Shown here piece by piece: positions 28,806-50,294 of a stretch of 64,000 bases of DNA. This DNA comes from Escherichia coli. GTDB lineage: Bacteria; Pseudomonadota; Gammaproteobacteria; Enterobacterales; Enterobacteriaceae. Position 1 is the first letter of the stretch; the number at the start of each line of letters is the position of its first letter. Made by a program: the position numbers and the translations under genes. The notes under the pieces are model-generated. The model was not told where the DNA came from and did not search any database. It worked only from the letters and a program-made list of their open reading frames with translations. The stretch lies in the NCBI RefSeq assembly GCF_003018255.1, contig NZ_CP027440.1, one strand, 5' to 3'.

Positions 28806-29330
28806 ATGGCTTTGACAACCATTTCGCCGCATGATGCACAAGAATTAATCGCACGCGGCGCAAAGTTAATCGATATTCGTGACGCTGATGAATATCTTCG
28901 TGAACATATTCCTGAAGCAGATCTGGCTCCATTATCCGTGCTGGAACAGTCAGGTCTTCCGGCTAAATTACGTCGCGAGCAAATAATATTCCACTGCCAG
29001 GCTGGTAAACGCACCAGTAATAACGCCGATAAATTAGCAGCGATTGCCGCCCCCGCAGAAATCTTTTTACTCGAAGATGGGATTGATGGCTGGAAAAAAG
29101 CAGGATTACCAGTAGCGGTAAATAAATCTCAACCCTTGCCGTTAATGCGCCAGGTGCAGATCGCTGCGGGTGGTTTAATATTAATCTGCGTTATACTAGG
29201 TTATACCGTAAATAGCGGTTTCTTCTTATTAAGCGGCTTTGTTGGTGCCGGGTTACTGTTTGCAGGAATTAGCGGTTTTTGTGGGATGGCAAGGTTGTTA
29301 GATAAGATGCCGTGGAACCAACGAGCTTGA
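28806..29330 (+). CDS. ygaP: Membrane-anchored rhodanese (thiosulfate sulfurtransferase) YgaP
   Basis: 174-aa ORF; rhodanese active-site loop CQAGKRT and C-terminal TM segments. Confidence 0.9.
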
Positions 29331-29376
29331 GAAGCGACGCCGGACGCGCCATAGCAGCAACATCCGGCCTCAGTAA

Positions 29377-29781
29377 TTAGATCAGAAAATCGTCGAGAGA
29401 TTTACCTTCTGCCAGCGCCTGAGCGATTGGCTTCGGTGTACGGCCCTGACCGGTCCAGGTTTTAGTTTCACCGTTAACATCGATGAATTTATATTTCGCC
29501 GGACGCGGCTGGCGTTTTTTACCAGCGCGTGGTGCCGCAGCAGAGCTATTACCCAATAACTCTTCCGGGTTAATTCCGTCAGCTTTCATCAGCTCCAGCC
29601 AGGTGCTAATTTTTTCCTGGCGCTCTGCCAGTTCACGCTGCTGTTGTTCTTCTTCTTCACGTCTTTCTTTAGTGACAACCCTGAATTTTTCGAGCATTTC
29701 TTCAAGAACGTCAATGGAGAATTCGCGAGCCATCGCACGGAGGGTGCGAATGTTATTTAAACTTTGTAACATTACGGACAT
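29377..29781 (-). CDS. stpA: H-NS paralogue StpA (nucleoid-associated protein, RNA chaperone)
   Basis: 134-aa [35 protein letters not shown]... with the C-terminal [12 protein letters not shown]-binding motif. Confidence 0.95.
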
Positions 29782-30447
29782 AATAAAGAAAACCTTTTAA
29801 CGCCAAAACAAAAAAGTATTTCGTCGCGTAGTGTAAGCGATCACTTATTATATTTCCACAAAATTTAATCTATTTACAGTCCTGCACGAGATTATTTCAG
29901 CTGTTATTTTCTGAAACCCTCAGAATAATTTCAAGATTATATATTAGCCATTTTGATGAGTAATTTAGGTTATTGGTGAACAGAGCGGCGCTCTCTGCTC
30001 GCTAATTCCGCAAGCCCGACAAAACCAAAGTGAATAAAAATGCAACTCAACAGAATAAAAGAAAACATCTATCACTGGTGCTTTCTGCTGTCAATGTACA
30101 TTATCTGGCATAAAAAATGCTGAAAATGACCCGATCACTACATACACCGAATTCTCTACGCTTATAGCGTTACCCCCCCCCAAACCTTCATGAGTGAAAA
30201 TAAAGGTAAACACATATCCAATTGATTTAATTAAAAATAAATCATATCGGCATGTAAAAATCCACAATGTACAAAAAACGCGCCGCTACGGAATATTTTA
30301 TCTACAAAAACAGATTAAATAAAAATTTTTCACTAATTGATTAGTCATAGCCAGCGATATACGCTATGCAAAAATGCAGATGGCAATGAGATCCACTGCT
30401 TTCATCTCCATTCACATCCCATTACGCTTTTATTAAGGAGCATTAGC

Positions 30448-30897
30448 ATGTTCTCACCGCAGTCACGCTTGCGTCATGCAGTTGCAGATACGTTCGCGAT
30501 GGTTGTTTACTGTTCTGTCGTGAACATGTGTATTGAAGTTTTCCTCTCCGGAATGAGCTTCGAACAGTCTTTTTATTCCAGATTGGTAGCGATTCCGGTA
30601 AACATCTTAATTGCATGGCCATACGGTATGTACCGCGATCTGTTTATGCGCGCAGCACGCAAAGTTAGCCCGTCGGGCTGGATAAAAAATCTGGCGGATA
30701 TCATGGCTTATGTGACGTTCCAGTCACCGGTGTATGTGGCGATCTTGTTAGTGGTGGGCGCAGACTGGCATCAGATTATGGCGGCGGTCAGTTCAAACAT
30801 CGTTGTTTCGATGTTGATGGGGGCGGTTTATGGCTACTTCCTCGATTATTGCCGCCGACTGTTTAAAGTCAGCCGTTACCAGCAGGTAAAAGCCTGA
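30448..30897 (+). CDS. alaE: L-alanine exporter AlaE
   Basis: Track ORF 30337-30897; start at the internal Met [16 protein letters not shown] gives 149 aa; small multi-TM protein. Confidence 0.88.
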
Positions 30898-30933
30898 CCC
30901 TTCTTTTCGCGACTGGCATCGCCAGTCGCGTCT

Positions 30934-31278
30934 TTAACTGGCTTCGCCAAATAAACCATTCAAATAACGTTCAAGCGCAACACGCGAACTAAAGCCATGC
31001 GGGATACCGTAATGCTCGTGTCGCTCGCCTGCTAAATAGAGCGGAAATTGTTGATAATGATCGCAAGTTTTAATATCGGAAGCGGGTTCAGCCAGTGTTG
31101 AACTACGTTCTTTTAATGTTGGATGAATCACCAGGGCGGTACGTCCCATTCGCGCTTCGCGATTAACATAGACATAATTTTCCCCACGGCGGTAACCATA
31201 AGCCTTCTGGGTTACCACATCGACAGTAAAACCGACTTTTTCAAGTACGCGCGCCACCTCGTCTGGTCGTAAATACAT
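30934..31278 (-). CDS. ygaC: Uncharacterized protein YgaC (DUF2002)
   Basis: 114-aa ORF; K-12 synteny between alaE and ygaM. Confidence 0.85.
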
Positions 31279-48086: not shown

Positions 48087-48155
48087 TTAGCCACCTCCGG
48101 TAATTTTTTTTTAAAATTTTCTGAACTCTTTCTTCCCAGGCGAGTCTGAGTATAT

Positions 48156-49865: not shown

Positions 49866-50294
49866 TTAGTGCCACCACATCATGCCCTGAACGGTAGCTG
49901 CTGCAACTGCAACATAGCGTAACGCTTTACCAAGGCACAAAAAAAAGATTACCGGTCCCCACGAGATGCGCATCCATCCCGCTAACAGACACAGTAAATC
50001 GCCAACCACGGGCATCCAGCTTAATAATAGCGTGACTGCACCATAGCGTTTCAGCCAGCCGGTAGCTTTCTCTTGCCAGCGCGATGTTTTACGCAATGGA
50101 AAGAAACGCCCAAGGATAACGTTAGTTAACCCTCCAAGGCTATTACCCATTGTTGCTGTTAAAACTAAAACCCAGGGATGACTCACTCCGGAAAGCAACA
50201 TTGCCACCAGCACGACTTCGGAGTTGCCGGGTAATAGTGTAGCGCTGAGAAAACTACTGGCAAACAACGAGAAAAGCGATAACGCTTCACTCAC
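49866..50294 (-). CDS. yqaA: DedA/SNARE-associated-family inner membrane protein YqaA
   Basis: 142-aa multi-TM ORF; its start overlaps the yqaB stop. Confidence 0.88.
   Translation of the reverse strand: MSEALSLFSLFASSFLSATLLPGNSEVVLVAMLLSGVSHPWVLVLTATMGNSLGGLTNVILGRFFPLRKTSRWQEKATGWLKRYGAVTLLLSWMPVVGDLLCLLAGWMRISWGPVIFFLCLGKALRYVAVAAATVQGMMWWH

What the first reader, a model, noticed from the sequence alone, without database searches (positions are those of the whole stretch)
30173..30181. C9 homopolymer in the stpA-alaE divergent regulatory region
A run of nine cytosines (TTACCCCCCCCCAAACC) lies about 270 nt upstream of the alaE start in a long AT-rich spacer. Homopolymers of this length are uncommon in E. 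coli and prone to slippage, so length could modulate a promoter or 5' UTR.
Basis: seen in the sequence. Interest (0 to 1): 0.2.

Follow-up and report, generated by a model that had tools for sequence, protein, structure and literature searches.

The report
Young, length-variable poly-C tract
The run of nine cytosines between the stpA and alaE genes is real and changes length among very closely related E. coli strains, but it is recent, confined to a small lineage and far from the mapped stpA promoter, so it is most likely an ordinary neutral microsatellite and not a genetic switch.

Summary
The C9 run is at window 30173-30181, as described. It lies 392 nt upstream of the stpA start codon and 267 nt upstream of the alaE start codon, in a 666-nt spacer with 35% G+C.

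It is not a species feature. Most of 5,426 complete E. coli genomes carry an interrupted decamer, CCTCACCCCC (K-12, O157). 262 carry CCTCCCCCCC. Only 57 carry a pure C run: C8 in 11, C9 in 38, C10 in 8, and none with C7 or C11.

Three local SNP haplotypes each hold two or three tract lengths. Six carriers differ by only 9 substitutions in 28.3 kb yet show C8, C9 and C10, while six A/T runs of 7-8 nt in the same stretch never vary.

The regulatory half is not supported. The mapped stpA transcription start (MG1655 2,798,556, about window 29841) is 332 nt away. Evidence for the alaE promoter points to the last ~190 nt before its ATG. The tract sits in the one part of the spacer that is not conserved across Escherichia species.

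Best reading: a newly born, neutral mononucleotide microsatellite and indel hot spot. Interest is low.

The parts
30173..30181 (+). C9 homopolymer (G9 on the minus strand). It is the derived, uninterrupted form of a C-rich decamer.
   Evidence: Searches show the run.
30125..30225 (.). Fast-evolving central segment of the spacer that contains the tract. It cannot be aligned beyond E. coli and one close clade.
   Evidence: E. albertii, E. whittamii and Escherichia sp. E1V33 have unrelated sequence here. Only short islands are shared (ATTCTCTAC, TGATTTA).
30159..30169 (+). Short inverted repeat CGCT-TAT-AGCG, 3 nt upstream of the tract. It is invariant in all E. coli examined.
   Evidence: read directly from the sequence. 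No function was tested.
29377..29781 (-). stpA coding sequence (H-NS paralogue), one of the two divergent flanking genes.
   Evidence: 134-aa ORF. RefSeq annotation of homologous loci.
29841..29852 (-). stpA core promoter: -10 TATAAT at 29852 down to 29847, and the TSS at about 29841.
   Evidence: The TSS at MG1655 2,798,556 with a perfect -10 is from PMC10301672. I mapped it to the window through. The tract is 332-340 nt upstream of it.
30258..30385 (+). Block conserved across Escherichia species upstream of alaE (-190 to -63 of the ATG). It is the probable Lrp-responsive alaE regulatory module.
   Evidence: Alignment with five other Escherichia species. It contains a match to the Lrp consensus at 30352-30366. 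The sigma-S RNAP ChIP peak lies at -86 to +63. The assignment as a regulatory module is inferred.
30448..30897 (+). alaE coding sequence (L-alanine exporter), the other flanking gene.
   Evidence: (ATG at 30448), and annotation.

Best explanation
The tract is a recently born, selectively neutral mononucleotide microsatellite.

How it arose:
- The ancestral E. coli sequence at this site is an interrupted C-rich decamer, CCTCACCCCC.
- An A-to-C change produced CCTCCCCCCC, the form found in ATCC 11775, Nissle 1917 and other ExPEC reference strains.
- In a small, largely poultry- and ExPEC-associated lineage, a T-to-C change removed the last interruption and gave C10.
- Once uninterrupted, the run began to gain and lose single bases by replication slippage, giving C9 (the window's allele and the commonest) and C8.

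What it does: it lies in the non-conserved middle of the H-NS- and Lrp-bound stpA-alaE spacer, far from the stpA promoter and upstream of the conserved alaE control region. Its length changes are therefore expected to have no effect, or a negligible one, on either gene.

Shown: the allelic series, the length polymorphism among near-identical genomes, the distance to the stpA TSS, and the lack of conservation.

Inferred: slippage as the mechanism, the order of the mutational steps, and neutrality.
For: - Allelic series read directly from genomes: CCTCACCCCC (K-12, O157), CCTCCCCCCC, CCTCCCCCC, CCTCTCCCC, C10, C9, C8.
- Exact-match counts among 5,426 complete genomes: C7 0, C8 11, C9 38, C10 8, C11 0, CCTCCCCCCC 262. 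This is a unimodal, stepwise distribution.
- Sixteen pure-C carriers fall into three local haplotypes defined by 4 SNPs in 1.84 kb. Each haplotype holds two or more lengths: A {9,10}, B1 {8,10}, B2 {8,9,10}. C10 is present in all three. This implies at least four independent length changes.
- Six carriers differ by 9 substitutions and no other indel in 28.3 kb, yet carry C8, C9 or C10.
- Six A/T runs of 7-8 nt in the same DNA are identical in all six assemblies.
- Indel rates in E. coli rise exponentially with homopolymer length (PMC8510543).
- The stpA TSS is 332 nt away (mapped through).
- The segment holding the tract is not conserved in other Escherichia species, while the flanking promoter-proximal blocks are.
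- No ORF spans the tract in a frame shared between alleles.
- No Rfam family matches. No promoter-like site lies next to the tract at the scan's threshold.
Against: - Neutrality was not measured.
- I could not read a mapped alaE TSS.
- A genomic-SELEX paper predicts, without TSS data, two promoters close to the tract (PMC3946193). One is on the plus strand, with its -35 hexamer 13 nt downstream of the tract. The other is on the minus strand and would transcribe through it.
- The whole spacer is bound by H-NS and by Lrp, which bridges this DNA (PMC10127797). A rigid G.C block or a 1-bp change in phasing could therefore have a subtle effect.
- Some length calls may be assembly errors, because C/G homopolymers are hard for long-read platforms.
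Confidence: 0.75

Rival explanations
1. Phase-variable (contingency) control. Slippage in the poly-C tract changes the spacing or the UP-element context of a distal alaE promoter, or the leader of a distal stpA transcript. This would switch or tune expression in subpopulations, as poly-C/G tracts do in Neisseria and Bordetella promoters.
For: - The tract is hypermutable among near-clonal genomes.
- It lies between divergent genes.
- Shimada et al. predict a plus-strand promoter, GTGATA-17-TCTAAT, which would place the tract at about -49 to -57. They also predict a minus-strand promoter, TTTACA-17-TTTAAT (window 30258 down to 30230), which would put G9 at about +42 to +50 of a transcript (positions).
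Against: - Those promoters are predictions from a genomic-SELEX peak, not mapped starts.
- In the window the plus-strand hexamers are degraded to GTGAAA and TCCAAT. Neither candidate passes the promoter scan.
- The only stpA TSS reported in the sources I could read (ROSE, which states it was also described by Thomason et al. and RegulonDB) is 332 nt away.
- The RNA polymerase ChIP signal for alaE sits at its ATG.
- The segment is not conserved, and about 99% of strains lack any homopolymer here.
- Lengths span only 8-10 nt. The genes are a nucleoid protein and an amino-acid exporter, not surface antigens.
Confidence: 0.08
2. Architectural modifier without switching. The G.C block and its 1-bp length steps alter H-NS or StpA filament continuity, or the helical phasing between Lrp sites in the bridged ygaP-stpA-alaE complex. 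This would shift stpA or alaE expression slightly in the carrier lineage.
For: - The spacer is listed as H-NS-bound.
- It carries strong Lrp peaks that bridge DNA and affect stpA over more than 1 kb.
- The tract is one of two G+C-rich islands in an otherwise 26-36% G+C spacer.
Against: - The ancestral decamer is already 8/10 C, so composition changes little.
- A 1-bp change within a 666-nt spacer bound by flexible oligomers is unlikely to matter.
- No Lrp-consensus match lies near the tract.
- No expression data exist.
Confidence: 0.1
3. Sequencing or assembly artefact. The apparent length differences, including the window's C9 against its closest local relative's C10, are homopolymer miscalls and not real variation.
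For: - C/G runs of 8-10 nt are error-prone on PacBio CLR and Nanopore.
- Many carriers are long-read assemblies.
- No reads could be inspected.
Against: - Different lengths occur within single studies that deposited consecutive accessions and so probably used one pipeline. That is my inference; the methods were not checked. Examples: E14033 C10 against E12049 C9; E5 C8 against E7 C9; STE15 C10 against EC31 C9.
- Three isolates with consecutive numbers share C8.
- The same six assemblies show no other indel in 28.3 kb and identical A/T runs.
- The existence of a pure-C tract, as opposed to the interrupted allele, rests on base substitutions, which are robust.
Confidence: 0.07

Closest known systems
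Mononucleotide-run indel hot spots in E. coli, such as the A.T9 run in the glnS promoter and the G.C8 runs in the leuP/Q/V/T tRNA genes (Foster et al. 2021, PMC8510543)
   Same: An uninterrupted run of 8-10 nt that accumulates +/-1 indels far faster than the surrounding DNA. It behaves as a mutational target and not as an evolved device.
   Different: Those runs were scored in mismatch-repair-defective mutation-accumulation lines of K-12. Here the evidence is natural polymorphism among wild genomes, in a run that K-12 does not have.
Promoter-located poly-C/poly-G contingency tracts: Neisseria meningitidis opc and porA, and Bordetella pertussis fim genes (from my own knowledge of that literature)
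   Same: A C/G homopolymer of about 9-10 nt in an intergenic control region, with length polymorphism between close relatives.
   Different: - Those tracts sit inside the core promoter, or between an activator site and the -10 element, and they control surface antigens.
- This tract is 332 nt from the mapped stpA TSS and upstream of the conserved alaE control block.
- It is absent from about 99% of the species.
- No ON/OFF phenotype is known.
Microsatellite 'birth' from a proto-repeat by point substitution (a general concept in microsatellite evolution)
   Same: Interruptions in a C-rich decamer are removed stepwise (A to C, then T to C). Length instability appears only after the run becomes pure. 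Intermediates survive in other lineages.
   Different: The concept is usually described in eukaryotes. Here every stage can be seen within one bacterial species.

Membership tests
Neutral mononucleotide microsatellite / slippage hot spot | Uninterrupted run long enough to slip (about 8 nt or more) | tested here: met
   C9 at 30173-30181.
Neutral mononucleotide microsatellite / slippage hot spot | Stepwise (+/-1) length polymorphism among close relatives, recurring on different backgrounds | tested here: met
   Counts are C8 11, C9 38, C10 8, C7 0 and C11 0. Each of three local haplotypes carries two or more lengths. Lengths 8, 9 and 10 occur among six genomes separated by 9 substitutions in 28.3 kb.
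Neutral mononucleotide microsatellite / slippage hot spot | No sequence constraint: the site is not conserved in outgroups and the interrupted form is tolerated | tested here: met
   The segment cannot be aligned in E. albertii, E. whittamii or Escherichia sp. E1V33. The majority of E. coli carry CCTCACCCCC.
Neutral mononucleotide microsatellite / slippage hot spot | The length variation is real, not a read or assembly error | tested here: inconclusive
   Indirect support only. Lengths differ within single studies, and control A/T runs are invariant. No reads were available.
SSR-mediated phase-variable promoter (contingency locus) | Hypermutable simple repeat | tested here: met
SSR-mediated phase-variable promoter (contingency locus) | Repeat located inside a core promoter, between an activator site and the promoter, or inside a UTR or ORF of the controlled gene | tested here: not met
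   - For stpA the tract is at -332 to -340 of the mapped TSS (mapped through).
- No ORF spans it consistently.
- For alaE no TSS could be read. Indirect evidence places the promoter within about 190 nt of the ATG, while the tract is at -267 to -275.
- Only unverified predicted promoters lie nearby.
SSR-mediated phase-variable promoter (contingency locus) | Repeat length correlates with ON/OFF or graded expression | not testable with these tools
   This needs reporter fusions or RNA measurements in allele-swap strains.
SSR-mediated phase-variable promoter (contingency locus) | Length heterogeneity within a clonal population | not testable with these tools
   This needs deep-read pile-ups. Only consensus assemblies were available.

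The most novel reading that the evidence does not exclude
In a small, largely poultry- and ExPEC-associated E. coli lineage, a newly evolved hypermutable poly-C tract inside the Lrp-bridged, H-NS-bound stpA-alaE spacer acts as a tuning knob. One-base length changes would alter nucleoprotein phasing or a distal promoter, and so diversify expression of the nucleoid protein StpA or the alanine exporter AlaE. This would be a rare example of a simple-repeat contingency locus arising de novo in E. coli.
Probability: 0.06. Interest if true: 0.55.

Novelty: new member of a known kind. Interest (0 to 1): 0.13.

Why it matters
As it stands it matters little. It is a tidy natural example of a homopolymer becoming unstable as soon as its last interruption is lost, with every intermediate allele still present in the species.

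It has two practical uses. It could serve as a fast-evolving marker within the carrier lineage. It is also a site where genome assemblies should be distrusted.

It would matter more only if tract length were shown to change stpA or alaE expression. E. coli is not known to use simple-repeat contingency loci for regulation.

Tried and rejected
- Rfam scan of 29300-30950 at a permissive E-value: no match.
- Promoter and terminator consensus scan of the spacer: nothing next to the tract. The only minus-strand candidate is at 29934-29906, and the counts do not exceed the shuffles.
- Lrp consensus scan: the only matches in the spacer are at 29921-29935 and 30352-30366, none near the tract.
- A small ORF spanning the tract: rejected, because frames differ between the 9-nt and 10-nt alleles and between the window and K-12.
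- Origin of C9 by deletion of the T from CCTCCCCCCC. The nearest 25-kb relative, JNE23-011, carries that allele. I considered this less parsimonious than T-to-C followed by slippage, because C10 occurs in all three local haplotypes.
- Literature search for an alaE TSS failed:
  - Ihara et al. 2017, Free & Dorman 1997 and Thomason et al. 2015 are not held.
  - Supplementary TSS tables were truncated or absent.
- From memory only, and unverified: the Ihara et al. 2017 abstract reports that 240 nt upstream of alaE gives full Lrp-dependent induction, that 180 nt does not, and that Lrp footprints at -161 to -83. I do not know the numbering origin, so I did not rely on it.

Full report
**Observation.** The window reads GCGTTA-CCCCCCCCC-AAACC, with nine cytosines at 30173-30181. 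This is the only C9/G9 in the 64 kb and the only G/C run of 8 or more. stpA occupies 29377-29781 on the minus strand and alaE starts at 30448 on the plus strand (RefSeq annotation of homologous loci). The tract is therefore 392 nt upstream of the stpA ATG and 267 nt upstream of the alaE ATG. The 666-nt spacer is 35% G+C, against 50% for the window. Composition-preserving shuffles yield a C9/G9 in 16 of 100 trials, so composition alone does not make the run improbable. It is nonetheless rare in real DNA of this kind. There is no G/C run of 8 or more in 411 kb around alaE from 53 other enterobacterial species. Foster et al. 2021 treat 8-bp G.C runs as outliers in K-12.

**Variation across strains.** The spacer is present once per genome in 5,419 of 5,426 complete E. 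coli genomes, at 94-99.8% identity to the window, and none matches perfectly. Alignment showed that K-12 and O157 carry an interrupted decamer, CCTCACCCCC. The best match over the spacer, strain E04, carries C10. Sampling further genomes revealed an allelic series: CCTCACCCCC, CCTCCCCCCC, CCTCCCCCC, CCTCTCCCC, C10, C9 and C8.

Exact-match queries of 75-79 nt with window-type flanks gave these counts:

| Allele | Genomes |
|---|---|
| C7 | 0 |
| C8 | 11 |
| C9 | 38 |
| C10 | 8 |
| C11 | 0 |
| CCTCCCCCCC | 262 |

The CCTCCCCCCC group includes ATCC 11775 and Nissle 1917. CFT073 and UTI89 sit one mismatch from the C10 query over the same span, which is consistent with that allele. Pure-C tracts are thus found in about 1% of genomes. 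This is a lower bound, because carriers with a SNP in the flank would be missed. The carriers are mostly chicken, turkey and other avian isolates, plus some human, pig, dog and water isolates. Two are typed O78:H4. That this lineage is ST117-like is my inference and was not tested.

**Is the length variation recurrent?** I compared six carriers over 28.3 kb. They differ by 9 substitutions and by no indel other than the tract, yet carry C10 (E14033, STE15), C9 (E12049, E7, EC31) and C8 (E5). The tract has therefore changed at least twice on a tree on which an average site changed 3 x 10^-4 times. The six other homopolymers in that stretch (A/T runs of 7-8 nt) are identical in all six assemblies.

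I then typed sixteen carriers over 1.84 kb. They fall into three local haplotypes, separated by four SNPs:

| Haplotype | C10 | C9 | C8 |
|---|---|---|---|
| A | E04 | window | none |
| B1 | STE15, APEC O2-211 | none | MDR_56 |
| B2 | E14033, AHB3 | E12049, E7, EC31, 13P477T, D10, 2009C-3133 | E5, E06 |

Every haplotype carries at least two lengths, and C10 occurs in all three. The most parsimonious history is CCTCACCCCC, then CCTCCCCCCC (A to C), then C10 (T to C), followed by at least four independent contractions to C9 and C8. The window's C9 is one of these contractions.

The window's closest relatives over 25 kb, JNE23-011 and JNE112863 (99.7%), still carry CCTCCCCCCC. The 1.8 kb around the tract is, however, identical to E04 apart from the tract and one SNP. 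The locus is therefore mosaic.

I could not inspect reads, so individual lengths may be miscalled. Two things argue that most of the variation is real. Lengths differ within single studies, and the control runs are invariant.

**Position relative to regulatory signals.** The stpA TSS is reported at MG1655 2,798,556 with a perfect TATAAT (PMC10301672). That paper states the TSS was also described by Thomason et al. and RegulonDB. MG1655 stpA ends at 2,798,495 and alaE starts at 2,799,164. With the alignment, the TSS maps to about window 29841, with the -10 hexamer at 29852-29847. This puts the tract at -332 to -340, outside the core promoter and the 61-nt leader.

For alaE I found no readable TSS. 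Four indirect lines of evidence bear on it:
- A sigma-S RNA polymerase ChIP-seq peak at 2,797,100-2,797,249 in U00096.2 coordinates (PMC4447067). With an offset of 1,978 that I derived from remembered ssrA coordinates in the two releases (not a tool result), this is -86 to +63 of the ATG.
- A block at 30258-30385 (-190 to -63) that is almost invariant across E. coli, E. albertii, E. whittamii and two further Escherichia species.
- A match to the Lrp consensus inside that block, at 30352-30366.
- The known strong Lrp occupancy and Lrp-mediated bridging of this spacer (PMC10127797).

The tract lies upstream of all of this. It sits in the segment 30125-30225, which is unalignable outside E. coli and one close clade; that clade has CCT--CTCC at the site.

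Shimada et al. 2014 list the spacer as H-NS-bound and predict two promoters from a genomic-SELEX peak:
- TTTACA-17-TTTAAT toward stpA, at window 30258-30230 on the minus strand.
- GTGATA-17-TCTAAT toward alaE, at window 30194-30222, which reads GTGAAA...TCCAAT in the window.

These are the only published elements close to the tract. They are predictions, not mapped starts, and neither passes the consensus scan.

**Other readings excluded.** No Rfam family matches. No ORF crosses the tract in a frame shared by the 9-nt and 10-nt alleles.

**Interpretation.** The tract is best explained as a newly born mononucleotide microsatellite. Once the last interruption was lost, the run entered the length range in which E. 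coli indel rates climb exponentially, and it now varies between 8 and 10 nt. Several facts argue that its length is not under selection and does not control either gene:
- It is restricted to about 1% of genomes.
- The surrounding segment is not conserved.
- It is far from the mapped stpA start.
- It lies upstream of the conserved alaE module.

I put this reading at about 0.75. Phase-variable control of a distal promoter is about 0.08. A subtle architectural effect on the H-NS/Lrp complex is about 0.10. Variation that is purely artefactual is about 0.07.

**Comparison with known systems.** The tract behaves like the homopolymer indel hot spots catalogued in E. coli mutation-accumulation studies. 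It resembles the promoter poly-C/G tracts of Neisseria and Bordetella only in composition and instability. The defining feature of those systems is location within a core promoter or between an activator site and the promoter. That feature is not met for stpA and is unsupported for alaE. The expression and population-heterogeneity criteria could not be tested here.

**Verdict.** This is an ordinary feature of a known kind, with a small residual chance of being a lineage-specific tuning element. Interest is low (0.13).

Noticed in passing
window 29982-29994 (inside the G+C-rich island 29982-30031): There is a near-perfect palindrome, AGAGCG-G-CGCTCT, in a 56% G+C island in the middle of the AT-rich stpA-alaE spacer. 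It is conserved among E. coli strains (one G-to-A change in O157) but not in E. albertii, E. whittamii or E1V33. It could be a transcription-factor site.
   Followed up: partly
window 30258-30385: This block upstream of alaE is almost invariant across Escherichia species (-190 to -63 of the ATG) and contains an Lrp-consensus-like site at 30352-30366. It probably marks the real Lrp-responsive alaE control region. No strong sigma-70 consensus is visible in it.
   Followed up: partly
window 17700-42699: The neighbourhood is mosaic. Only JNE23-011 and JNE112863 (Japan, human) are close over 25 kb (99.7%), and every other genome listed in the top 60 is 98.3% or less. Yet the 1.8 kb around stpA-alaE is identical to strain E04, apart from the tract and one SNP, and nearly identical to the poultry-associated carriers. 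This suggests local recombination.
   Followed up: partly
window 48104-48112; 7989-7996; 49939-49946: These are the other long homopolymers in the window: T9, A8 and A8. I did not examine them for polymorphism.
   Followed up: no
L016-L019, about 1-9100 (between ssrA and glaH in strains E5, E7, STE15, EC31): P4-like satellite prophage genes (sid, ogr/delta, polarity suppression protein, primase-helicase) lie upstream of glaH in some carrier genomes but not in E14033 or E12049. In STE15 and EC31 the element carries an ISEc12 insertion.
   Followed up: no
L006, L007 and NZ_AP017620.1 (hit H285): The interrupted allele also varies in length. CCTCCCCCCC (C7 run) coexists with CCTCCCCCC (C6 run). 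One genome (MRY15-131) appears to have a still shorter form, inferred only from its alignment span and not read directly.
   Followed up: partly
window 29810-29815 (A6 here, A7 in K-12; alignment column 29): A second, shorter homopolymer, in the stpA 5' UTR, differs by one base between the window (also O157 and E04) and K-12.
   Followed up: no
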